From: an uncultured virus (IMG/VR IMGVR_UViG_3300022924_000206)
Taxonomy: Duplodnaviria > Heunggongvirae > Uroviricota > Caudoviricetes
Virus record (IMG/VR): IMGVR_UViG_3300022924_000206
DNA length: 64,000 nt
Strand: one strand, 5' to 3'
Below are positions 5,079 through 34,967 of the stretch, one piece after another; the stretch's first letter is position 1, and each line of letters begins with the position of its first letter. Below the pieces are notes generated by a model that worked only from the letters and a program-made list of their open reading frames with translations, was not told the DNA's origin and searched no databases. A program made the position numbers and the translations under genes.

Positions 5079-5151
5079 CGCGGTGTAGCTCAGTTGGTAG
5101 AGCAACGGACTCATAAACCGTAGGTCGACAGTTCAATCCTGTCCATCGCGA
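5079..5151 (+). tRNA. tRNA-Met/Ile2(CAU)
   Basis: Cloverleaf, loop CTCATAA, paired 1-72. Confidence 0.9.
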
Positions 5152-5242
5152 CTGTCTTCAGCGTGGCATTATCATAGCCAACTCCCCCAGGACGGAAACG
5201 TAGCAAGGGTAACTGTGCTCTAGTGGGTGCGCTGAAGGCTTT

Positions 5243-5325
5243 GCCGAAATGGCGGAATGGCAGACGCGCTGGCCTCAGAAGTCAGTGTCCTCAAGGACGT
5301 GTGGGTTCAAGTCCCATTTTCGGCA
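5243..5325 (+). tRNA. tRNA-Leu(CAG)
   Basis: Leu D arm, loop CTCAGAA, long variable arm. Confidence 0.95.
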
Positions 5326-7539: not shown

Positions 7540-7610
7540 TTATCTATAGCTTAAATGGAAAAGCTGCGGTCGACAACCCGTGAACGTCGGTTCGATTCCG
7601 GCTAGGTAAA
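7540..7610 (+). tRNA. atypical tRNA-like RNA (8-nt loop TCGACAAC)
   Basis: TTATCTA/TAGGTAA acceptor, D and T arms present. Confidence 0.45.
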
Positions 7611-7751
7611 CTACCCAAGTAAACCATGGCGGTGAGTTCTCTCCTCGGAGGCGATTCTAGTGAAGTACCGATGCTAACCATGGGCGGGATGCAATTGACC
7701 GTAGAGCTTCGGCTCTCGACTCCCTCGGGCAGGCTTAAAAACTTCACACAT

Positions 7752-10192: not shown

Positions 10193-10283
10193 CACGGAGT
10201 AGAGAAGTTAGGCATCTCGCTGGGCTCATAACCCAGAGGCTTTCATACGCGCATAAAAGGTTCAAATCCTGCCTCCGTTTCCA
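10193..10283 (+). tRNA. initiator-like tRNA-Met(CAU) with extra bases before/in T stem
   Basis: Unpaired C1, CTGGG-CTCATAA-CCCAG arm, CCA encoded. Confidence 0.7.
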
Positions 10284-10301: not shown

Positions 10302-10580
10302 TTGAAAGGAGTACCGATGATTCAGCTTCCCACCCTTTGTGGAACACGAGAAAGTGCAGCTCAGTTGTTCACCGGTATCTCCAACGAAGACTCGCCATTA
10401 ATCTCTTTAATCGGTGTCCAAGCAACAGCTCAAGGTTTTGTTGACGAGCTCTGTAAACAGCTCATTGACCGGCGAATCAATGTCGTAACTTTTTTGCAGC
10501 CAAGCGAAAAGTTCCTTGAGTACTTTATGAGAGCTCATCGACTTCGCTCCGCTAAATTCTCGGTCTCCTGGCGGGACTGA
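10302..10580 (+). CDS. STAS-like (DUF4325-like) protein
   Basis: GTRESA...GVQATAQGFVDEL pattern; likely ATG start near 10317. Confidence 0.6.
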   Translation: MKGVPMIQLPTLCGTRESAAQLFTGISNEDSPLISLIGVQATAQGFVDELCKQLIDRRINVVTFLQPSEKFLEYFMRAHRLRSAKFSVSWRD

Positions 10581-10583
10581 CTT

Positions 10584-10769
10584 ACCTCTTTAGCTCAAAC
10601 GGAAGAGCGGCCCGAAAACGATGGGGCGTCATTTCAGGAACGTTGCGGATGCACCGGGATCGAGCCAGCTGCTCAAAAGGTAGCTGGTTGGGGAACCTTA
10701 GCCCTCGACAGGGAAGCGCGTTTTCGAAGCCTGGATACTTAGGTGTGGGTTCAAGTCCCATGAGGGGTA
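10584..10769 (+). ncRNA. 186-nt expanded tRNA-like RNA
   Basis: ACCTCTT/GAGGGGT acceptor, D arm, T arm; insert closed by CGAAAACG/CGTTTTCG. Confidence 0.6.
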
Positions 10770-10952
10770 CGGATTATGGGGCGACCAAGGGATGGAAGAA
10801 AGCCTTACCTTAGAGTAAAGCACTCTCGGTTCGATGCCGGGGTAATCCACGTAGTAAGCCTCTAGCTTTTCCGGCATTGCGTCCGGCGGACTGGTGAACC
10901 GAGCGTTAGAGAGAGCCCGCAGTCAATCCTACTGTCTACAAATGGATAACAA

Positions 10953-11089
10953 GCCGCCTTAGCTCAGTGGTAGAGCACTTCCTTGGTTTCCTCGAAAGAG
11001 GATAAGGCAAGGCCTTAGTTTGGTTAACAGAATAAACGCTGTTAGCCTTGCTAAGGAAGAGGTCGTGGGTTCAAGTCCCACAGGTGGCT
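10953..11089 (+). tRNA. tRNA-Thr(GGU) with 65-nt insertion in the anticodon loop
   Basis: Removing 10987-11051 gives a canonical 72-nt tRNA with CTTCC-TTGGTAA-GGAAG arm. Confidence 0.8.
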
Positions 11090-11142
11090 CGGGGTTTGTT
11101 TGCACATTTCATCCAGCGTCGTCAAAGCAAAATGTGCGTTTC

Positions 11143-11216
11143 GCCACCTTAGCTCAGCCTGGCAGAGCAGCTAACTAGTAATTAGCAGGTCATCAGTTCA
11201 AATCTGATAGGTGGCT
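11143..11216 (+). tRNA. tRNA-Thr(AGU)
   Basis: Cloverleaf, loop CTAGTAA. Confidence 0.9.
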
Positions 11217-11217
11217 C

Positions 11218-11291
11218 CGCGGGGTAGACCGGAGGCGGTTCCGGCCTGGCCTCATAAGCCAAGTACGAGGGTTCGATTCCCTCTCCCGCAA
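11218..11291 (+). tRNA. tRNA-Met(CAU), C1:A72 mismatch
   Basis: Loop CTCATAA, atypical D arm. Confidence 0.8.
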
Positions 11292-11498
11292 CTCGTCGGC
11301 ACCTCCGACTTTGGTAGTTAGGCACCTAAGATAAGAACCTAGCATGGTGGCTCCCATTGAAAGAGCAGGGAAGCACCTCCCGTAAAATTGTGTATACCTC
11401 GGCGGGAGAGCTCGTGTTAGAGGATGCGAACGGTGCGTGCAAGTGCTTCGAAGAGGTTCGAAAAGTCTTGCTACACTTTCTTTTAGGGATAGGAAAAT

Positions 11499-12065: not shown

Positions 12066-12140
12066 GATGTTGTAGCTCAATTGGTTAGAGCGCCCGGCCG
12101 AATTGCTGGGTTGTTGTAGGTTCGAGTCCTGCCAATGTCA
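12066..12140 (+). tRNA. atypical tRNA-like RNA (6-bp stem, loop CGAATT)
   Basis: Normal D and T arms, non-canonical anticodon loop. Confidence 0.5.
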
Positions 12141-12294
12141 CGATAACACCGCGATCTAGAACAGATCGCGCCCGTATGAGGGTTATTGCGACCCTCCCCT
12201 TGCCTTAGAGGGAACGGACAGCGAGAGCTGATTCAGAGAAGGGATTCTCTGGTGCTACCTCGGTAGTAAGAAGAGGTTTGGTGTGTTATCACAT

Positions 12295-13335: not shown

Positions 13336-13405
13336 TCAATAGTAGCATATTCGGCAAATGCGCCTTCGAAAGAGGAGACTACGGGTTCGATTCCCGTCTA
13401 TTGAA
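13336..13405 (+). ncRNA. tRNA-like RNA with GAAA-capped anticodon arm
   Basis: TCAATAG/CTATTGA acceptor, D and T arms, CCTTCGAAAGAGG arm. Confidence 0.5.
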
Positions 13406-15351: not shown

Positions 15352-15424
15352 GCGAAAATAGCTCAGTTGGTAGAGTGCGACCTTGCCAAGGTCGATGTCG
15401 CGGGTTCGAGTCCCGTTTTTCGCT
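15352..15424 (+). tRNA. tRNA-Gly(GCC), second copy
   Basis: Cloverleaf, loop TTGCCAA. Confidence 0.95.
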
Positions 15425-15507
15425 CACGGAGTAGAGCAGTTAGGTAGCTCGCTGGGCCCATAACCCAGAGGTCGCACAAAGTGGTTCAAATCCCGCCTCC
15501 GTAACCA
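15425..15507 (+). tRNA. initiator-like tRNA-Met(CAU) with bulged T stem
   Basis: C1:A72, CTGGG-CCCATAA-CCCAG, CCA encoded. Confidence 0.7.
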
Positions 15508-16265: not shown

Positions 16266-16370
16266 ACAGAAATAGCTCAATGGTAGAGCACGGCCACTAA
16301 GGCCGGGTATAAGCAAGATATAGTGTTGCAAATCACTTTAAAAGCGCAGGTTCGATTCCTGTTTTCTGTA
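16266..16370 (+). ncRNA. tRNA-like RNA, 5-nt loop centred on CUA, long variable region
   Basis: ACAGAAA/TTTCTGT acceptor, CGGCC-ACTAA-GGCCG arm, T arm. Confidence 0.55.
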
Positions 16371-16498
16371 CGGTGAAGAGTTGTAAGTATACCTGAAGAG
16401 ACGCCTAGGGAACTTTCCGAAACATGAGGGACAGATTGCAAGCTGTTTCTGCGTGAGGCTCAGGCCGCATTTAGTACTCTATGTGCCTGAACCGTCAT

Positions 16499-16573: not shown

Positions 16574-16645
16574 GCTTCCATAGCTCAATGGTAGAGCAGG
16601 ACATTCTAAACGTTCGTGTTCTCGGTTCGAGTCCGGGTGGAGGCG
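16574..16645 (+). tRNA. amber suppressor tRNA (CUA)
   Basis: Canonical spacing puts CTA at 34-36 in loop TTCTAAA; A31-C39 mismatch. Confidence 0.8.
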
Positions 16646-16650
16646 CTTAT

Positions 16651-19200: not shown

Positions 19201-20013
19201 TACTGAATCAAACGACAAACCTTCGGGTGAGGCGGGAGATGAAGTAACTCCGGCATGACGGATAAACCAAGGCAACTTGGGGAAAGGGATTCCTGACAGG
19301 ATCCCGCCTGAAAAGGCAAATCATGCACTTCACAAGATTCAGCAATCGTCGCCAAAAAGGCGGTTGCCATGTGAAAAGGTAGTTGGATCAAAGGCCGAAC
19401 TTGGTGGAGATCTGAAACGGGTAACTTGCTCGCTAAAAACAACATATGCTGACTCTCATGTTTTTGTGGAAGGTGTTTAGTCCGAGGCTTGGCGGCCAAG
19501 GGCGGATGCCATAGAAAGGGAATCGGGACGAAGGTTTCGAGGAACTGAAAGAAGCGTAAGTAGTCGCCAACGAAAGCGCTTGAGGAAGTGGAGCATTTCT
19601 TAGCCCGAAAGGGAGAGGAAACTTCGAGGAGGAGCACTTCCCGCGTCAAAAACCTAACTCAATTGGCAGAGTGCCTCCCTATTAAGGAGGAAGTTGCAGG
19701 TTCAAACCCTGTGGTTTCTAAAAGCAAAAGCCTTCTCCAGTAGATAAGCAAAAGCGCCCTAATCCCTGGCTCTTCGGAGAACCAGGGCGAAGGATGGCCG
19801 CAAGCCTGAATTTGTTGGTAGTCGAATGTAACGCAACTCAGTGGGTAGCTCCTAATGAGTGAGTGAAAAGACGCCGAGCAGCTGTCTACTTATGGAATAG
19901 TCAACCTAAATGACCGGGCGTGGATGATAGCATGGGTAACATGCTGGATCAGGAAGCTAATAAATACGGCTTCTGAAGTCATCCAAGTGAGGCTGTAATC
20001 TCAGGCCACACCA
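19201..20013 (+). ncRNA. ~810-nt structured RNA, GOLLD-like, with embedded tRNA
   Basis: No credible ORF, many tetraloop hairpins, own promoter and terminator, internal tRNA. Confidence 0.55.
19648..19720 (+). tRNA. embedded tRNA-like element, anticodon AUU (Asn)
   Basis: CCTCC-CTATTAA-GGAGG arm, D and T arms, weak acceptor. Confidence 0.6.
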
Positions 20014-20399: not shown

Positions 20400-21188
20400 A
20401 TGGTTGAGTACGCCGGAATTCGTAATGTTTTCAGAGAAATAGAAAACTTTGACGAAAACAAGCCAATTATCTTTATGGATGTTGACGGAGTTATAAACGC
20501 TCTTCCCTTTGATCGTGAATGGGTTGGGCCAGAAATTCCACCTGAAACCGGACTTTATGATCCGATCTATTACGATCCAAACAATTGGAAAACTGTTCGT
20601 ATAGAACATAATCCCGAGCTACACTATCCTATTAGTAAGGAACTCACGGTAGATTTTGATCGCATGCTCGATTATCCTAAAGAATACACAGATAATTTAG
20701 ATGAACAGCAAGCAGAGAAACGCTATAAGAAGCTTCGTATAAACCTCATGGAGGAAATGCTAGCTGAACTACGAGAAATAGTTGAAGAATATGACCTCCA
20801 GGTCATTTATCTGACCTATTGGCGCTCTGAAGCCCTTAGGCTTTTAGAGCCGGAACTTCAACTCGGAGCTACTGCTTATCTGGATTGGCGAACTAATTCT
20901 GATCTCGGTCACAAGATGAAAATTCATGCTATCCATGCACTCTATGAAGAGACCAATATTAGAACTCCTTTCATAGTTTTGGATGATGAATCCACGGCGG
21001 GGCTCCACGATGACAGTGTTCTCTGGCAGGTGAACCCTATATTTGCGGATAAATATCCTGAGCGAACTCTTCAGTTTGGAGAGCTTAATAAGATTCCTAA
21101 ATTGATCTTCCAACAGGATGCTCGTTGGGGAATCGAAAGAGCTCATCTCGCTAAGATTAGAGAGTTTGCAAAATCACTCAAAGCATGA
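20400..21188 (+). CDS. HAD phosphatase (Swiss-Army-knife RNA-repair HAD-like)
   Basis: FMDVDGVIN motif I, TYW motif II, VLDD motif IV. Confidence 0.7.
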   Translation: MVEYAGIRNVFREIENFDENKPIIFMDVDGVINALPFDREWVGPEIPPETGLYDPIYYDPNNWKTVRIEHNPELHYPISKELTVDFDRMLDYPKEYTDNLDEQQAEKRYKKLRINLMEEMLAELREIVEEYDLQVIYLTYWRSEALRLLEPELQLGATAYLDWRTNSDLGHKMKIHAIHALYEETNIRTPFIVLDDESTAGLHDDSVLWQVNPIFADKYPERTLQFGELNKIPKLIFQQDARWGIERAHLAKIREFAKSLKA

Positions 21189-22317: not shown

Positions 22318-23118
22318 ATGAGCTCCTCTTTCGACATTGCAACAATTAATCCTTTACGGATATTGGTGGTCGGGGATTGGCATAGGAACATTCACGCCGC
22401 ATTTCCTAAAAAAGTGGTCGCCTATGCTAAAAGCATAGGTATCGAAGTAATCCTCCACGTGGGAGACTTCGGCTATAAGTACGGCGTCAGGGGGAATGAT
22501 GCTTACATGTTTGAAAAACCTCTCCATCGCGCTCTTCAGGAGGCTGGCATTCAACTTGTTTGGGTGGATGGTAACCATGAGAACCATGAATATTTGAGAG
22601 CTCTTCCTCTACTACCAAATGGTTTCGCTCAAACCGGAGCTAGAGGAAACATCTATTACGCTCCCCGCGGACTCCGCTGGCAATGGAGTGGAAGAACTTT
22701 CGGTGCCCTCGGCGGCGCATTGTCAATCAATGCTGCGCGCCTACAGGAGGGTGTTACTCTTTTCGCCGATTTAGAGGAACCCACCTACGAAGATCTCGAC
22801 AAACTAGGTAAAGATAAGTTAGATTATCTTGTTTGTCACGATGTACCCATGAGAGTAGCCTTGAAATCTATTTTTGGGGTACCGGTTAAAAGTGAAACAC
22901 GAATTGTTTTGCAGAAAGCCGTGGATACTTTGAAACCTGAAAGAGTTTTTTCGGGTCATTGGCATCAGCGTAGCGATTTCCGTATTCCTAGAGATGATGA
23001 TGGGGAAACCTTTGGTCACATCTTGGATAAGGAATTCACAGTTGGTAATATACTTATTCTTAACCTCGAAGACAACACCATTGAAAACCCTCCGGCCAAT
23101 TGGCAAGAGCAAAACTAA
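22318..23118 (+). CDS. calcineurin-like metallophosphoesterase
   Basis: GDWH, GDFG, GNHE, GHWH motifs. Confidence 0.9.
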   Translation: MSSSFDIATINPLRILVVGDWHRNIHAAFPKKVVAYAKSIGIEVILHVGDFGYKYGVRGNDAYMFEKPLHRALQEAGIQLVWVDGNHENHEYLRALPLLPNGFAQTGARGNIYYAPRGLRWQWSGRTFGALGGALSINAARLQEGVTLFADLEEPTYEDLDKLGKDKLDYLVCHDVPMRVALKSIFGVPVKSETRIVLQKAVDTLKPERVFSGHWHQRSDFRIPRDDDGETFGHILDKEFTVGNILILNLEDNTIENPPANWQEQN

Positions 23119-25477: not shown

Positions 25478-26923
25478 ATGACTGCAGAGTTTATTCATCT
25501 TCATGTCCACTCTGACAACAGCATGCTCGACGGTTTCTCTAAGCCTGTAGAATACCTCGAAGCTGCCCACAAGATGGGTATGAAGGGTATCGGTATTACT
25601 GACCACGGAAATACTCACGGTGCCTACGCTCTAGTCAATCAGGCTAAGAAGTTCGATATGACCGGAATTCCCGGTTGTGAGTTCTATGTTGCGCCAGCTA
25701 ACCCTCAAGGTGCTCGAGTGAAAGAGCCGGTCTATTATGGGCCGGGAGGACAGAAGGCCGGCGGAAACGATGTTTCCGGTTCAGGAGCTTATCTTCACCT
25801 TACAATCTGGGCTTATAACCAGGAGGGGATGCACAATCTCTTCAAGCTTTCAACACTTTCCAACCAGCCTGAGAACTTCTACATGAAGCCGCGTATCGAC
25901 TTCGATATGCTAGCTGAGCACTCCGGTGGGCTCATCGTCTCAACTGGATGTCCGTCCGGTGAAATTTCAACCCGTTTCCTTCTTGGACAGGACAAGCTAG
26001 CTTACGAATACGCTGGACGCCTAAAAGACATTTTTGGGGAGCGTCTTTTCGTAGAGATCATGGATCACTCCATGGATATTGAACTCGAGCGCTCACTTCT
26101 ACCAAAGCAGCTTGAGATGTCAAAGAAGCTAGGTATTCCTCTTCTCGCTACAAACGATGCTCACTATGCTCACAAGCATGATGCTATTCACCACGAAGAA
26201 ATGCTTGCATCCCAGTCCGGTTCACGTATGACAGAGCCGACCTGGGATAACGGCGGCTCTCGATTTGCTTTCAATGGTACCGAGTACTACCTCAAAACCG
26301 CTGAAGAGATGGCCGCAATTTTCCCTGAGAAAGATTTCCCAGGAGCAACGAAAAACACTTTGCTAATCGCTGAGATGACTCAGGATATGCAACTTGACTT
26401 CAATCCTGATCTCATGCCTAACCCCATTCTTCCTCCGGAGTTTACGGATGAAGTCGAGTATTACAAACATCTAATCAATGTGGGATTCAAGGACCGTTAC
26501 GGAAACTCTCCTCGAGAAATCAAAGAGGAAGCTCTTCGTAGGATCAAGTTTGAGATGGAAGTTATCCACTCATCTAACTTCATTGGTTACATGCTCACGG
26601 TTCACGAGTACCTCTGGTGGACTCGAGAAAAATTCTCTACTCGTGATGCTAGCGGAACTATTCTCGCTCCGGCCATCGGAATTGGTCGAGGTTCCATCGG
26701 AGGAAGTATCCACGCCTACTGCCTATATATTTCCGAGATTGATCCCATCCGTTGGGACACTATTTTTGAGAGATTCCTGTCAGCTGGTCGAGGAAACACC
26801 TATAGAATTGATTACGACGATGGAACTTTCGAAGAGATCATTGTTTCTGCGGAGAAGGAACTAACCTCCGGGGACAAACGTTACATTCATCAGCTCCACG
26901 TTGGTGACGAGATTGTAGACTAA
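25478..26923 (+). CDS. dnaE: DNA polymerase III alpha, N-terminal part (PHP + palm start)
   Basis: HLHVHS, ITDHG, TNDAHY, GRGS, FERFL. Confidence 0.93.
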   Translation: MTAEFIHLHVHSDNSMLDGFSKPVEYLEAAHKMGMKGIGITDHGNTHGAYALVNQAKKFDMTGIPGCEFYVAPANPQGARVKEPVYYGPGGQKAGGNDVSGSGAYLHLTIWAYNQEGMHNLFKLSTLSNQPENFYMKPRIDFDMLAEHSGGLIVSTGCPSGEISTRFLLGQDKLAYEYAGRLKDIFGERLFVEIMDHSMDIELERSLLPKQLEMSKKLGIPLLATNDAHYAHKHDAIHHEEMLASQSGSRMTEPTWDNGGSRFAFNGTEYYLKTAEEMAAIFPEKDFPGATKNTLLIAEMTQDMQLDFNPDLMPNPILPPEFTDEVEYYKHLINVGFKDRYGNSPREIKEEALRRIKFEMEVIHSSNFIGYMLTVHEYLWWTREKFSTRDASGTILAPAIGIGRGSIGGSIHAYCLYISEIDPIRWDTIFERFLSAGRGNTYRIDYDDGTFEEIIVSAEKELTSGDKRYIHQLHVGDEIVD

Positions 26924-28083: not shown

Positions 28084-30822
28084 ATGTCTAAAAAAATCGT
28101 CTCAATTCAGGTTATCAAGCCTGGTTCAAACCCCGATGTTGACTCCGACTTCAACACGAAAGCTCGCGAGCACGCGGTTAATCACGTAAAAGAGCTCCAC
28201 GGCGCAGGAAACGTAGCCTCCATCGGTACGTTCTCTACATTGGCCGCTAAAGGTTCGTTCAAGACCATGTGTACTCTTTACGAGATCCCTTTCGCTCAGG
28301 CTAACAAGATCTCCGACCTTATCCCCTCCGGTGGTGAAGGTGGAGATATTACAATCGCTGACATTTACGATACGCGAAGTGACTTCTATACGGCTTCAGC
28401 TGATTTCCGATCAGCCACCGCCGGTGAAGAGTGGGAAAAGATCATGGAGGGAGCGAAAGCTCTCGAGGGTAGGAACAAAACCACAGGAGTTCACCCTTGT
28501 GGAATCGTTATTTCTTCGCGTCCACTTTTAGACACTGTGCCTCTTCAAGTTCGACAAGATGACGGCCTTGTGGTGACTCAGTGGGGTTATGCTGAGCTCG
28601 AATCTCTCGGACTGATCAAGATGGACTTCCTCGGTTTGGATACCGTGGACCTCATTCAGCACACCATTGAGAACATCATGGTTTCTGGTAAAGTTGTCCC
28701 TAACATGCTTGACATAATCAATGGTTCTATGGATGACAAGAAAACCATTGATATGATCGCTCGCGGTGAGACGATTGGATTATTTCAACTCGCCGGTGAG
28801 GGCGTTCAAGATCTTCTAAAGCGAATCAAGCCTACTTCCGTTCACGACATTATTGCCACAACCGCTTTGTACCGCCCGGGTCCCATGGGTGTTCAATCTC
28901 ACATTCGCTACGCTGATCGAAAGAACGGTAAGGAAGAGGTTGACTTCATCCACGACGACTTCAAGGGTACTGCCATTGAGGAAATTCTAGGGTCAACTTA
29001 CGGTTTGGTTGTTTACCAAGAGCAGATCATTCGTATTGCTAACCAGATCGCCGGTATGACCCTCCAGGAGGGTGATGACCTCCGTAAAGCCATGGGTAAG
29101 AAGATCATGGCTAAGATGCTTGCGATGAAGCCAAAATTTATGGAAGGTGGAGCCGCTAAGGGCTATTCCAATGAAGCCATGGAGCTTCTCTGGAACACCT
29201 GTGAAGAGTTCGCTAAGTACGGATTCAACTTGGCTCACTCGGTAGCCTACGGTATCAACGCTTACCAGACAGCATATCTAAAAGCCAATTATCCGGTTGA
29301 GTTCATGGCAGCGCTTATCGCTCAGAACGTGGGAAACAAGAACAAAGTTCTTACCTTCCTCCAGGAGGCTCGCCGCATGGGACTCAAGGTTGGTTCTGTG
29401 AATGTGAACATTTCGCAGAGCCGAGTGACCCCGGACTTTACCCGCGCTTCAGGTTTCGACATCGTTTATGGTTTCGATGGGCTCAAGGGTGTCTCGAAAG
29501 ATATTGCTGAAATCATCATCACCGAACGAGACAAGAACGGTGAGTTCGTTTCAGTTCAAGACATGATTAACCGTTGCCTACCGAAGGGCGTAGCTAACCG
29601 TAGAGTTTACGAAGCCATCGCTAAGGCCGGCGGTTTCGATCTTTTCGGTGTCTCTAGAAAAGCAGTTGTGGAAAACCTAAATGGTCTTCTCTCTGCATCG
29701 AAGACTAAAGAGGCAAAGGGCGCTTCACTGTTCGACATTTTCGGTGAAGCAGATGTGATGGAATCATCCTCCATCGACCTCAAAGGTCAGGAGGAGTTTC
29801 CTCACGTTGTCAAGCTAAAGCTAGAGGCAGACATTGTGGGCCTTTACCTAACCGGGCATCCGCTAGAAAAAGCTGGCCCTGGTTTGTCAAAAGCTCGTAC
29901 GGCAACCATCGCCACCTTGGTGAAAGCTCAGCAGATGACTACGGCGACTCTGACCGTAGCTATTACGGAAATCATCAAGAAGCCCATGCGTAAAGGTGGA
30001 AAATCAGTGATGGTTACTCTCGATGACGGCACTGGTTACATTACGGCCAATGTCTCTAGAGAGCTAGTCAAGGGTATGGATAAATTCACCGCCCAGGAGC
30101 GCATTCGTAAGCTCTACATTGACGGGGAAACACAGATTCCCGAAGATATGGAAGAGATGGCTCTTTCCAGCGAATTCGTTGCTCTTCCGGATATTGAACA
30201 AAACTCTGTCTATGTGGTGAGCATAACTTTCCGTCCGTCAAGAGGAGAGTCACCTTACGGAGCTAGAGTCAACGGTATAGTCCCTCTAGCTCTAGCTGAT
30301 GATGGTTCACTTCCAATTCGTATGAGAATCCTCTACAACGATTCAACGGAGGAAAAAGCGAAAGAACTCGCTAATAAACTGCCTCGAGCTATCGCTAGTC
30401 GTAATCCTGGAGATTTCCCTATTTATCTCTCGTTGGCTCCAAAGAGTGGATCAAATGCTGCTGAAGATGAGTCAACTTATCGTGCAGCCATTGAGGAAAT
30501 TCGCTCAGCTGACAAAAAGAGTGACATCGCTGTAGCGGCAGCTGACAATACTAATCTCTGGGGTGGTGCAGATACCCGTAAGAAAAAGGTTACGGTGAGT
30601 ACCGAAGGAAAGCGAAGCTGGCCTCCGGTTACTCCTGCTAGGCCTAAGGGTCCTCGACCTGGAGTTCTACTCAATGAAGACGAAGTAATCAGAAATCTGA
30701 TCTATGTAGACACCGGTTACAGAGCGGCGAAGACAAAGAAGACAGAGCTTGATATTGAAAAATATCTTGGAGTAGAATCCTACGATTATGGAATATTTGA
30801 TTCAGCCGTTTTGGAGGACTAA
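28084..30822 (+). CDS. dnaE: DNA polymerase III alpha, C-terminal part
   Basis: PDVDSDF, HPCG, KMDFLGL, LYRPGP, YGFNLAHS. Confidence 0.93.
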   Translation: MSKKIVSIQVIKPGSNPDVDSDFNTKAREHAVNHVKELHGAGNVASIGTFSTLAAKGSFKTMCTLYEIPFAQANKISDLIPSGGEGGDITIADIYDTRSDFYTASADFRSATAGEEWEKIMEGAKALEGRNKTTGVHPCGIVISSRPLLDTVPLQVRQDDGLVVTQWGYAELESLGLIKMDFLGLDTVDLIQHTIENIMVSGKVVPNMLDIINGSMDDKKTIDMIARGETIGLFQLAGEGVQDLLKRIKPTSVHDIIATTALYRPGPMGVQSHIRYADRKNGKEEVDFIHDDFKGTAIEEILGSTYGLVVYQEQIIRIANQIAGMTLQEGDDLRKAMGKKIMAKMLAMKPKFMEGGAAKGYSNEAMELLWNTCEEFAKYGFNLAHSVAYGINAYQTAYLKANYPVEFMAALIAQNVGNKNKVLTFLQEARRMGLKVGSVNVNISQSRVTPDFTRASGFDIVYGFDGLKGVSKDIAEIIITERDKNGEFVSVQDMINRCLPKGVANRRVYEAIAKAGGFDLFGVSRKAVVENLNGLLSASKTKEAKGASLFDIFGEADVMESSSIDLKGQEEFPHVVKLKLEADIVGLYLTGHPLEKAGPGLSKARTATIATLVKAQQMTTATLTVAITEIIKKPMRKGGKSVMVTLDDGTGYITANVSRELVKGMDKFTAQERIRKLYIDGETQIPEDMEEMALSSEFVALPDIEQNSVYVVSITFRPSRGESPYGARVNGIVPLALADDGSLPIRMRILYNDSTEEKAKELANKLPRAIASRNPGDFPIYLSLAPKSGSNAAEDESTYRAAIEEIRSADKKSDIAVAAADNTNLWGGADTRKKKVTVSTEGKRSWPPVTPARPKGPRPGVLLNEDEVIRNLIYVDTGYRAAKTKKTELDIEKYLGVESYDYGIFDSAVLED

Positions 30823-33581: not shown

Positions 33582-34967
33582 ATGTTTCACATCAATAATC
33601 AAGGTAACCCGGCGTCCTGCGTGGCACGCCCGGGAAACTGTCCCTACGGTGCGGACGCTCCACATTTTGAAACCGCCGAAGAGGCACGCTCGGCTTACGA
33701 GCTAACTCAAGCAGCGGATAAATCACTCACTAAGGCTATTCGCCACGAGATGACCATTTCTTCGGATGTGAAAAAGGTGTTAGATCGCCTTTACGCTGCT
33801 GGTCTAACTCCTTACATCATCGGTGGCTCGGTGCGAGATTCTATCTTCAGTCACGAAGTTCCGAAAGATATAGATATTGAAATTTTCGGGTTGAAAGACA
33901 TGGATGAATTGGAAGCGGTGCTAGAAAAGCATAACTACAACTTCGATGCCGTGGGTCGCTCTTTCGGTGTGTTAAAACTGAAGGTTGCCTCCGGTGAAGA
34001 CCTTGACCTGTCTCTTCCGAGAAGAGATTCTAAAGTTGGGGATGGGCACAAAGGCTTCGATGTGGTAGTTGATACTACTTTAAGTTTAGAGGATGCGGCA
34101 GGTCGTAGAGATTTCACCATAAATACTCTTTACTACAGCGCACGAGATAACCGCGTAAAAGACTTTTTCGGTGGTGTAGAAGATTGGGAAAAAGGTGAGC
34201 TTCGACACATTAATGAGAGCTTCGCGGATGATCCGTTGAGGGTAATTCGCGGTGTTCAATTCGCCGCAAGATTCAAAATGAAGCTAGCCCCAGAAACCGC
34301 CGAGCTAACTCGCTCCATGGTGAACGAAATACCAAATCTCTCCAACGAAAGAATTCAAACAGAGTTTGAAAAACTGTTCTCAAAAGGTGAAATGACCTAT
34401 GGAATAGCGGCTCTTCACGATTCAGGCTGGGCGCCTGGTTTAAGATTAGGAAATGTTGACCAGAAAGATGCCGTGGAGGCGGACGCAGCCATCAAGAGAG
34501 CAAAAGCTCTAAATGATGATCCTGGTGTCTTCGCCGCAGCAAAGCTAATGAGAAAAGTTTCAGGTAAAGAAAGACTCAAGTTAGCCGATTCGGTGCTAAC
34601 AGGCCTAAAGAGACAGCAAAAAGCTGGAAAAATCATTGATAAGGTTGCTCCGGCAGCTAAAGATGAGCTCTCTATTCGCCGTTGGGCTCGCGAGTTGGAT
34701 CGTGAAGGTTTATCCCCCAAGGATTACTACATTTTCAACGGAGATGAATCACTTAGGGTCGCTTCTGAAAAACATGGAGTGTTTGAATCAGGGGATAAGG
34801 ATCTAATTACTGGCGCTCTAGTGCTGGAGAAAAGTGGCGGCAAACCGGGCCCCTGGATTGGCAAACTAATTCGAGAGGCTAACAAAGCTCAAGATGATGG
34901 TATTTTTAAGTCGCAAGATGAAGCAAATAGTTGGCTTCAAAGAAAGCTTAGTTCCATCACTGAGTAG
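33582..34967 (+). CDS. cca: class II tRNA nucleotidyltransferase (CCA-adding) with N-terminal HCCH module
   Basis: GGSVRD, DIDIE, RRDFTIN, DDPLRVIR, ERI. Confidence 0.88.
   Translation: MFHINNQGNPASCVARPGNCPYGADAPHFETAEEARSAYELTQAADKSLTKAIRHEMTISSDVKKVLDRLYAAGLTPYIIGGSVRDSIFSHEVPKDIDIEIFGLKDMDELEAVLEKHNYNFDAVGRSFGVLKLKVASGEDLDLSLPRRDSKVGDGHKGFDVVVDTTLSLEDAAGRRDFTINTLYYSARDNRVKDFFGGVEDWEKGELRHINESFADDPLRVIRGVQFAARFKMKLAPETAELTRSMVNEIPNLSNERIQTEFEKLFSKGEMTYGIAALHDSGWAPGLRLGNVDQKDAVEADAAIKRAKALNDDPGVFAAAKLMRKVSGKERLKLADSVLTGLKRQQKAGKIIDKVAPAAKDELSIRRWARELDREGLSPKDYYIFNGDESLRVASEKHGVFESGDKDLITGALVLEKSGGKPGPWIGKLIREANKAQDDGIFKSQDEANSWLQRKLSSITE

What the first reader, a model, noticed from the sequence alone, without database searches (positions are those of the whole stretch)
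10953..11089. tRNA-Thr(GGU) interrupted by a 65-nt structured insert inside the anticodon
Seen: deleting 10987-11051 (or 10988-11052) yields a canonical tRNA with loop TTGGTAA. It is the only GGU isoacceptor in the window, while UGU, AGU and CGU are intact. The insert folds as TCCTC-GAAA-GAGGA plus GCAAGGC..TAACAG/CTGTTAGCCTTGC. Established: bacterial tRNA introns are long group I/II ribozymes, and archaeal ones use a bulge-helix-bulge, which I do not see here. Inference: a new small intron type, or an anticodon-masked decoy.
Basis: partly seen in the sequence, partly recalled or inferred. Interest (0 to 1): 0.75.

Follow-up and report, generated by a model that had tools for sequence, protein, structure and literature searches.

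The report
Phage threonine tRNA split by insert
A large uncultured soil phage carries an otherwise perfect threonine tRNA gene that is cut in two inside its anticodon loop by a tightly folded 65-base insert of no known intron type, so either the phage relies on an undescribed way of cutting and rejoining tRNA or this gene no longer decodes.

Summary
Window 10953-11089 is a full tRNA (Rfam 57 bits). A 65-nt insert (10988-11052, or equally 10987-11051) splits its anticodon loop. Removing the insert in silico gives a 73-nt tRNA-Thr(GGU). An uninterrupted copy, 91% identical, sits in Microbacterium phage Pumpernickel.

The insert folds far better than shuffles (z about -4.6). It matches no Rfam family, is far too short for a group I or II intron, and forms no bulge-helix-bulge. 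It has no other copy in the window and no look-alike in any collection searched.

The same insert is present in contigs from a second leaf-litter sample and a wastewater sample. No RNA data, no diverged relative and no RNA ligase or splicing nuclease gene could be obtained, so splicing is not shown.

My best reading (0.4) is an intervening sequence removed by protein enzymes and rejoined by an RNA ligase. Nearly as likely, the gene is dead or is a non-decoding tRNA-shaped RNA.

This scan has noted short structured inserts in phage tRNA anticodon loops many times on other DNA. The only published parallel found is the unexplained introns of Lak megaphages (2019). I rate it a new variant of that little-known kind.

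The parts
10953..10987 (+). 5' exon of tRNA-Thr(GGU): acceptor strand, D arm, 5' strand of the anticodon stem and loop bases U32 U33 G34 G35 U36
   Evidence: Rfam tRNA alignment, ARAGORN -i, alignment to Pumpernickel Thr(ggt), coordinates
10988..11052 (+). 65-nt insert in the anticodon loop, between U36 and A37 (10987-11051 gives the same product)
   Evidence: No Rfam family at E<=10. Fold z -4.58
10989..11002 (+). Hairpin 1: UCCUC-GAAA-GAGGA, 5 bp with a GNRA-type tetraloop, starting one base after the 5' junction
   Evidence: Pair probabilities 0.87-1.0; coordinates
11003..11017 (+). Hairpin 2: UAAGGC-AAG-GCCUUA, 6 bp. With the following GUUUGGUU it also fits a weak terminator-like pattern
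   Evidence: Cloverleaf-enforced and insert-alone MFE; terminator-like scan
11022..11047 (+). Hairpin 3: GGUUAACAG-AAUAAACG-CUGUUAGCC, 9 bp with an 8-nt loop
   Evidence: Present in all predicted folds; inner 6 bp have probability about 1.0
11050..11052 (+). Last three insert bases, GCU. They can pair with anticodon G34 G35 U36 and extend the anticodon stem to 10 bp in the cloverleaf-compatible fold
   Evidence: Not beyond chance: the same 5-bp extension appears in 60 of 300 shuffled inserts
11053..11089 (+). 3' exon: A37 A38, 3' strand of the anticodon stem, variable loop AGGUC, T arm, acceptor strand and discriminator U. CCA is not encoded

Best explanation
The 65 bases are an intervening sequence in a working tRNA-Thr(GGU) gene of a large actinophage-like phage.

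**Proposed route**
- The precursor keeps the tRNA body. The insert sits on the anticodon stem as three hairpins.
- Protein endonucleases of the host or the phage cut at U36|U and U|A37.
- An RNA ligase (RtcB-type or Rnl-type) rejoins the two halves in the anticodon loop. This last step resembles the way phage T4 reseals broken anticodon loops.

**Shown:** the gene anatomy, the strong fold, the lack of any self-splicing or archaeal signature, and the persistence of the insert in three samples.

**Inferred:** that the insert is removed at all, that removal is enzymatic, and which enzymes act.
For: 1. **Intact exons.** Every stem pairs, and removing the insert restores the loop UUGGUAA exactly as in the uninterrupted Pumpernickel copy.
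2. **Strong structure.** The insert folds far better than chance: 0 of 200 shuffles do as well, and z is -4.7 with the exons held fixed. A GNRA-capped hairpin starts one base after the 5' junction. The Lak megaphage inserts also begin with a small hairpin (Table S6).
3. **Not a repeated mobile element.** The best other match in the 64-kb window is 11 nt. None of 61 phage records matches the insert. Pattern scans of viral, genome and metagenome contigs gave only chance or unrelated hits.
4. **Persistence.** The insert-bearing form is the one seen in a second leaf-litter run (289-nt contig, 0 differences) and in a wastewater run (332-nt contig, 2 differences). No contig in the four DNA runs laid joins 10987 to 11053.
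5. **The tRNA would be useful.** ACC and ACT make up 459 of 665 Thr codons in 41 ORFs. The array holds a G34 tRNA for the Gly, Pro, Ser, Ala and Val boxes.
6. **tRNA upkeep genes nearby.** The phage encodes a CCA-adding enzyme (33582-34967), a HAD domain of the 'Swiss Army Knife RNA repair' type (20400-21188) and a metallophosphoesterase (22318-23118) next to the array.
7. **Same kind of insert elsewhere.** Unexplained short inserts occur in Lak megaphage tRNAs. Earlier unchecked notes of this scan describe more.
Against: - No conservation test was possible, because no diverged relative carrying the site could be retrieved.
- No RNA ligase, RtcB or splicing endonuclease family hit any window protein: 0 of 55 in Pfam, 0 of 24 in Pfam at E<=1, 0 of 39 in PHROGs, 0 of 33 in NCBIfam.
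- The anticodon-insert pairing is no better than chance (60 of 300 shuffles).
- In that fold the two junctions are staggered by 3 bp or 1 bp. This does not fit the 2-nt stagger I recall for RNase III.
- Hairpin 2 followed by GUUUGGUU fits a weak terminator pattern inside the insert.
- An intact Thr(AGU) gene lies 54 nt downstream and could cover ACU/ACC.
- The array holds several other odd tRNA-shaped genes, so non-decoding tRNA look-alikes are common in this phage.
- The near-identical copies in other samples show persistence, not selection.
Confidence: 0.4

Rival explanations
1. Dead gene. A one-off insertion or rearrangement in the anticodon loop inactivated tRNA-Thr(GGU). The neighbouring Thr(AGU) and the host's tRNAs cover the loss, and too little time has passed for the exons to decay.
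For: - No homologous insert exists anywhere searched.
- No splicing enzymes were found in the window.
- An imperfect direct repeat, CCTTGGT / CCTTGCT, sits at the two junctions, as illegitimate recombination could leave.
- Thr(AGU) lies next door.
- The array holds other degenerate-looking tRNA genes.
- All copies seen are near-identical, so the event may be recent.
Against: - A random insertion is not expected to fold at z -4.6.
- It is also not expected to leave every exon base, including both halves of the loop, canonical.
- The insert is not built from copies of the tRNA. Shared 5-mers are only marginally raised (10 against 4.9; 89 of 2000 shuffles reach this). Local alignment is at chance (495 of 1000).
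- It persists in samples from two habitats and two years, 2018 and 2021.
Confidence: 0.25
2. Unspliced functional RNA. The transcript keeps the insert and works as a tRNA-shaped, non-decoding RNA. It could be a decoy for a tRNA-directed nuclease or enzyme, or a scaffold displaying the three hairpins.
For: - The same array holds other tRNA-shaped RNAs with enlarged or altered middle parts. 10584-10772 has acceptor, D and T arms around a roughly 115-nt centre. Three initiator-like elements are fused to the 3' ends of Thr(tgt), Thr(agt) and Gly(gcc). 16266-16370 has a 39-nt variable region.
- The acceptor, D and T arms of the split gene are intact.
Against: - Nothing requires a non-decoding RNA to keep U33, G34 G35 U36, A37 and A38 exactly in place, so that deleting 65 nt restores a textbook loop.
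- No family of look-alikes was found (our-findings look-ups).
Confidence: 0.2
3. tRNA-trimming route, a sub-variant of the best explanation. The second half of the insert folds as the top half of a tRNA: a 7-bp stem GCAAGGC/GCCUUGC stacked on the 6-bp UAACAG/CUGUUA hairpin. RNase Z would then cut after the one-base 'discriminator' U11052, which is exactly the 3' junction. RNase P would cut before G11007.
For: - The stems can be drawn, and the 3' junction falls exactly one base after the 7-bp stem.
- Lak megaphage inserts contain clear mini-tRNAs in the same place (Table S6).
- Earlier scan notes propose this route for other phages (unchecked).
Against: - This fold is 11.3-11.5 kcal/mol worse than the alternatives, with pair probability 0.00, and 3.9 kcal/mol worse for the insert alone.
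- The loop AAUAAACG is not a T-loop.
- Rfam's tRNA model finds nothing in the insert.
- The RNase P site would lie 19 nt beyond the 5' junction, so only one of the two junctions is explained.
Confidence: 0.08
4. New self-cleaving or self-splicing RNA. The insert, with the exon ends, is a small ribozyme of an undescribed class.
For: It is very stable and compact. The MFE fold pairs insert bases with both exon junctions: CCUUG with CAAGG, and CCUUAGU with GCUAAGG.
Against: - No match to any of the 4227 Rfam families, including all catalogued small ribozymes.
- The helices are plain, without the internal loops or junction strands that form known active sites.
- No homologues were found from which to judge conserved bases.
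Confidence: 0.05
5. Removal at the CCTTG repeat, giving a Thr-bodied tRNA with anticodon GCU as ARAGORN calls it.
For: ARAGORN -i prefers this cut. The 5-nt repeat allows six equivalent cut pairs.
Against: - The variable loop is short and the body is Thr-type.
- The array already holds two Ser(GCU) genes.
- The homologue and environmental tRNAs with this arm read GGT.
- From my recall of E. coli ThrRS identity rules, G35 and U36 are needed for charging.
Confidence: 0.03

Closest known systems
'Enigmatic' introns in tRNA genes of Lak megaphages (Devoto et al. 2019, Nat Microbiol, PMC6784885; text passages and Table S6 read)
   Same: - A phage tRNA gene, including a Thr tRNA, is split in the anticodon loop at or next to the anticodon by a short insert (about 52-141 nt in Table S6).
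- The insert has no Rfam match and begins with a small hairpin.
- Genes with and without the insert exist.
- The removal route is unknown.
   Different: - Lak inserts carry a clear nested mini-tRNA with a GGTTCGAATCC-type T arm and A/T-rich spacers.
- This insert has no T-loop. Its tRNA-like fold is disfavoured and it folds as three plain hairpins.
- No sequence similarity was seen by eye between this insert and the Table S6 sequences; the two were not compared computationally.
- The host range and habitat differ: this is an actinophage-like phage from leaf litter, Lak is a Prevotella gut megaphage.
Archaeal and eukaryal tRNA introns cut at a bulge-helix-bulge by EndA/Sen and joined by RtcB or Trl1
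   Same: A short, non-self-splicing insert in the anticodon loop. The insert's 3' end can pair with the anticodon. The proposed logic is two endonuclease cuts followed by ligation.
   Different: - No BHB can be drawn (hand check on the sequence).
- The position is 36/37 or 35/36, not 37/38.
- No EndA-like protein is in the window.
- To my knowledge bacteria are not known to have this enzyme.
Bacterial group I introns in tRNA anticodon loops (cyanobacterial tRNA-Leu(UAA), Azoarcus tRNA-Ile; recalled)
   Same: A bacterial-world tRNA gene interrupted in the anticodon loop. In the MFE fold, exon ends can pair with insert bases.
   Different: The insert is 65 nt, against roughly 200 nt or more for the smallest group I introns as I recall. 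There is no RF00028 match. There is no terminal G for the GGU product.
Phage T4 anticodon-loop repair (PrrC cut, Pnkp healing, Rnl1 sealing; recalled)
   Same: It works like the proposed second half of the route: rejoining two tRNA halves broken in the anticodon loop. Possible end-healing domains (HAD_SAK_2, metallophosphoesterase) lie beside the array.
   Different: T4 repair restores a nick and removes nothing. No Pnkp kinase or Rnl ligase was found in the window.

Membership tests
Group I intron | Conserved catalytic core (P3-P9), detectable by Rfam RF00028; length of about 200 nt or more (length recalled) | tested here: not met
   The insert is 65 nt. No Rfam match at E<=1 in context or at E<=10 on the insert alone
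Group I intron | Intron ends in G (omega-G); 5' exon ends in U paired to a G of the guide (recalled) | tested here: not met
   For the GGU product the insert ends in U (11052) or C (11051)
Archaeal/eukaryal BHB intron | Two 3-nt bulges carrying the cut sites, separated by a 4-bp helix | tested here: not met
   Hand check on the sequence, for both cut pairs. Cut after 36: C31 U32 U33 G34 against C U U G gives 2 of 4 pairs. Cut after 35: C C U U against C C U U gives 0 of 4 pairs
Archaeal/eukaryal BHB intron | A splicing endonuclease (EndA/Sen) is available | tested here: inconclusive
   None among 55 window proteins in Pfam or 24 at E<=1. The rest of the phage genome and the host are not available
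Lak-type tRNA-shaped intron (Devoto 2019) | Insert in the anticodon loop at or next to the anticodon | tested here: met
   Lak positions are from Table S6
Lak-type tRNA-shaped intron (Devoto 2019) | Small hairpin at the 5' end of the insert | tested here: met
   Hairpin 1 at 10989-11002, probability 0.87-1.0
Lak-type tRNA-shaped intron (Devoto 2019) | Nested mini-tRNA: acceptor-like stem plus a T arm with a GTTCGAAT-type loop, ending just before the 3' junction | tested here: not met
   A 7-bp plus 6-bp version can be drawn, but it scores -51.0 against -62.3 kcal/mol with probability 0.00. The loop is AAUAAACG. Rfam tRNA has no match in the insert
Lak-type tRNA-shaped intron (Devoto 2019) | Same insert conserved across related phages, with insert-free alleles | tested here: inconclusive
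   Near-identical copies occur in 2 further runs. The only insert-free copy found is in a distant phage. No diverged relative was retrievable
Known small self-cleaving ribozymes (hammerhead, twister, pistol, hatchet, HDV-like and others in Rfam) | Match to the family covariance model | tested here: not met
   0 matches at E<=10 on the insert. Only weak, unrelated hits at E 0.43-9.1 in 10930-11110
Miniature mobile element (MITE/REP-like) | Multiple copies in the genome or in other genomes; terminal inverted repeats | tested here: not met
   The best second match in the window is 11 nt. The 9 pattern hits elsewhere share no flanks. The insert ends are not inverted repeats. Only 64 kb of the genome could be searched

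The most novel reading that the evidence does not exclude
The insert is a true intron of a kind not described for bacteria or their viruses. It would be a small, three-hairpin, non-ribozyme, non-BHB intervening sequence at position 36/37, excised by ordinary host or phage RNases and resealed by an RNA ligase. An actinophage-like soil phage would then make its main threonine tRNA by protein-dependent tRNA splicing.
Probability: 0.35. Interest if true: 0.8.

Novelty: new variant of a known kind. Interest (0 to 1): 0.55.

Why it matters
Textbook knowledge holds that bacterial tRNA introns are self-splicing group I ribozymes, and that protein-dependent tRNA splicing belongs to archaea and eukaryotes. 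A 65-nt, non-ribozyme insert in an intact phage tRNA gene challenges that division if it is spliced. Bacteria or their phages would then have a cut-and-rejoin tRNA splicing route.

This example is small enough to test directly with one in vitro transcript and a handful of purified RNases and ligases. It would also extend the unexplained Lak megaphage observation to an unrelated soil phage lineage and to a different insert architecture.

If it is not spliced, it is an ordinary disrupted gene in a tRNA array that is rich in odd tRNA-like RNAs.

Tried and rejected
**Searches for relatives (all empty or unrelated)**
- Four viral contigs DNA pattern scans gave 0 hits: insert pattern, two generic split-Thr(GGT) patterns, and the initiator-like element.
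- The hairpin-3 pattern gave 2 viral and 7 genome hits, all chance, with no shared flanks.
- Protein-based look-ups in viral contigs found no relative, using two small neighbouring ORFs and DnaE.
- The one metagenome scan returned 7 loci (L002-L008). All 7 are intact Thr(GGT) genes followed by a partial tandem copy, not split genes.
- In the phage collection, 0 of 61 matching records carry the insert. The best DnaE identity is 39.5%.
- The whole Pumpernickel record holds 41 tRNA matches, all of ordinary size.

**Sequencing runs**
- No RNA holder is listed.
- The read-laying table was cut (257 records and 34 difference rows not shown). I could not see what covers 11005-11071 in the diverged freshwater relative (X4) or at higher depth in X6. 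Contigs of the X4 relative that I could see stop at 10988.

**Proteins**
- No RNA ligase or endonuclease appeared by Pfam, PHROGs or NCBIfam.
- PDB sequence search gave 0 hits for three proteins.
- The ESM Atlas gave none for two proteins: one unknown, one kinase-like.
- The 364-aa ORF after the tmRNA looks like a membrane protein by eye (long hydrophobic stretches in its N-terminal half; no prediction was run).

**Ideas rejected**
- Anticodon-insert helix as a designed feature: 60 of 300 shuffles form it.
- Insert built from duplicated tRNA parts: k-mer sharing is marginal and alignment is at chance.
- tRNA top-half mimic as the favoured fold.
- RNase III-type excision: the junction stagger in the cloverleaf-compatible fold is 3 or 1 bp, not 2 (inference).

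**Literature.** Five full-text searches found no paper on how short phage tRNA inserts are removed. bioRxiv supplements were not consulted.

Full report
**What the window is.** The first 24 kb hold 52 ARAGORN genes, 51 tRNAs and a tmRNA. Rfam adds a GOLLD RNA and a small SRP RNA. Behind them lie phage replication and nucleotide-metabolism genes: a split DnaE, a clamp loader, RNR, two ClpP, a CCA-adding enzyme and SerRS. No genome is held for the window. The nearest phage DnaE is only 39.5% identical, in Saccharomonospora and Streptomyces phages. Individual tRNAs resemble those of Streptomyces and Microbacterium phages. The DNA comes from a leaf-litter metagenome. I read it as part of a large, undescribed, actinophage-like phage.

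**The observation.** Rfam's tRNA model matches 10953-11089 over its full length at 57 bits. It places one 69-nt insertion in the anticodon loop. ARAGORN with introns allowed finds a 65-nt intron. Removing 10988-11052 in silico gives a 73-nt tRNA-Thr(ggt).

Across the window, ARAGORN -i flags four 'introns' among 55 genes. Of these, only this one and 16266-16371 coincide with an Rfam tRNA match (57 and 48.8 bits). The extra length of 16266-16371 reads as a long variable region.

The body is Thr-type. The best database match is the uninterrupted 73-nt tRNA-Thr(ggt) of Microbacterium phage Pumpernickel. Both halves align there at 91%, side by side. Environmental tRNAs that share the 5' half continue ...TTGGT then AAGGAAG (table 7).

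The junction is therefore 36/37, or 35/36 because a T is repeated. It is not the canonical 37/38. ARAGORN's own call, Ser(gct), arises from the repeat CCTTG at 10981-10985 and 11046-11050. I consider that product unlikely. Thr(tgt), Thr(agt) and Thr(cgt) are intact, and no other GGU gene is present in the window.

**Structure.** The insert folds at -26.3 kcal/mol against -14.3 for shuffles (z -4.58, 0 of 200). The precursor folds at -62.5 (z -5.27). With the exons fixed and the insert shuffled 300 times, z is -4.7.

Two folds are nearly equal in energy:
- **The MFE (-62.5).** It opens the anticodon stem. Exon CCUUG pairs with insert CAAGG, and insert CCUUAGU pairs with GCU|AAGG.
- **A cloverleaf-compatible fold (-62.3).** The anticodon stem is extended to 10 bp by U32-A38, U33-A37, G34-U, G35-C and U36-G. 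It closes a junction of three hairpins: 10989-11002 (GAAA loop), 11003-11017 and 11022-11047.

It costs 3.9 kcal/mol more in the insert alone. The anticodon-insert pairing is not evidence of design, because 60 of 300 shuffled inserts do the same.

**What it is not.**
- No Rfam family matches the insert, alone at E<=10 or in context.
- 65 nt is far below the size I recall for group I and II introns.
- No bulge-helix-bulge can be drawn at either cut pair (hand check).
- It is not a repeated element. The best other match in the window is 11 nt, and the 9 hits to the hairpin-3 pattern in genome and viral contigs share no flanks.
- It is not detectably assembled from tRNA pieces.

**Persistence and relatives.** A 289-nt contig from a second leaf-litter run is identical across 10833-11121. 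A 332-nt contig from a wastewater run covers 10969-11300 with 2 differences. No contig in the four runs laid joins 10987 to 11053. Contigs can miss rare variants, so this last point shows presence only.

A relative at about 87-95% identity exists in a freshwater run. The contigs I could see stop at 10988, and the table was cut, so whether that relative carries the insert is open.

All other attempts to find relatives failed:
- Eight viral scans.
- One metagenome scan, whose 7 loci are all intact Thr(GGT) genes followed by partial tandem copies.
- One genome scan.

Conservation, the key test, could therefore not be done.

**Enzymes.** No RNA ligase, RtcB or splicing endonuclease family matched any window protein. 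Three tRNA-upkeep genes lie in or next to the array: a HAD domain of the 'Swiss Army Knife RNA repair' type (20400-21188), a metallophosphoesterase (22318-23118) and a CCA-adding enzyme (33582-34967). Only 64 kb of the genome is available, and the host is unknown.

**Usefulness of the tRNA.** ACC and ACT together are 459 of 665 Thr codons in 41 ORFs. The array has G34 tRNAs for the Gly, Pro, Ser, Ala and Val boxes. An intact Thr(AGU) gene 54 nt downstream might substitute.

**Comparison with what is known.** The lead to the literature came from earlier notes of this scan. They report many short structured inserts in phage tRNA anticodon loops and point to Devoto et al. 2019. I read that paper's passages and Table S6.

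Lak megaphage tRNAs (Tyr, Phe, Thr, Gly) are split at or next to the anticodon by inserts with no Rfam hit. Those inserts begin with a small hairpin and contain a mini-tRNA with a canonical T arm. The authors call them enigmatic and give no mechanism.

The present insert shares the site and the leading hairpin. It lacks the T-loop, and its tRNA-like fold is disfavoured. I therefore do not file it as a Lak-type member, only as another variant of the same unexplained phenomenon. Five full-text searches found no paper on a removal mechanism.

**Verdict.**
- Best explanation (0.4): a protein-dependent cut-and-rejoin intron. Only the anatomy is shown.
- Dead gene: 0.25.
- Unspliced tRNA-shaped RNA: 0.2.
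- The RNase P/Z top-half route (0.08) is a sub-variant of the best explanation, not an additional case.
- A new ribozyme (0.05) and a GCU product (0.03) are less likely.

Interest is moderate to high for the class, and reduced here by the lack of conservation or expression evidence.

Noticed in passing
window 19581-20007: GOLLD RNA (Rfam 171.8 bits against a cut-off of 150) inside the tRNA array. It encloses a tRNA-Asn(att) at 19648-19720.
   Followed up: no
window 5151-5245: A bacterial small SRP RNA match (55.3 bits against a cut-off of 40) lies between tRNA-Met and tRNA-Leu of the phage array. An SRP RNA gene in a phage seems unusual to me.
   Followed up: no
window 10193-10283, 11218-11292, 15424-15506: Three initiator-tRNA-like elements start at the last base of Thr(tgt), Thr(agt) and Gly(gcc). 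Two are near-identical in their 5' halves and carry extra bases before the T arm. Their Rfam scores are low, 35-38 bits.
   Followed up: partly
window 10584-10772: A tRNA-shaped RNA lies just upstream of the split gene. It has a 7-bp acceptor stem, a D arm, a T arm with the same loop as the split Thr gene, and a roughly 115-nt central domain in place of the anticodon arm. Rfam does not call it a tRNA. The stretch 10518-10811 is about 94.5% identical in the diverged freshwater relative.
   Followed up: partly
window 16266-16370 and 16574-16646: A tRNA with a 39-nt variable region and a CUA-containing loop (Rfam 48.8 bits), and a separate tRNA with anticodon CTA, a possible amber suppressor. TAG ends only 5 of 41 ORFs.
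   Followed up: no
window 7540-7611 and 12066-12141: ARAGORN reports four-base anticodons (gaca, gaat) for two tRNAs, which implies eight-base anticodon loops. They may read four-base codons, or they may be degenerate.
   Followed up: no
window 25478-26923 and 28084-30822: DnaE is split into a PHP/N-terminal gene and a finger/C-terminal gene, with a clamp-loader gene between them.
   Followed up: no
L002-L008 (metagenome contigs): Seven unrelated metagenome contigs carry an intact tRNA-Thr(GGT) followed directly by a partial second copy. In several, the T arm of that copy is interrupted by a GC-rich hairpin. Earlier notes of this scan describe the same pattern.
   Followed up: partly
window 13336-13405: Rfam finds a tRNA here (50.2 bits) that ARAGORN misses. 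Its anticodon arm contains the same 11-nt string, TCGAAAGAGGA, as hairpin 1 of the insert. At E 0.67 this is probably chance.
   Followed up: no
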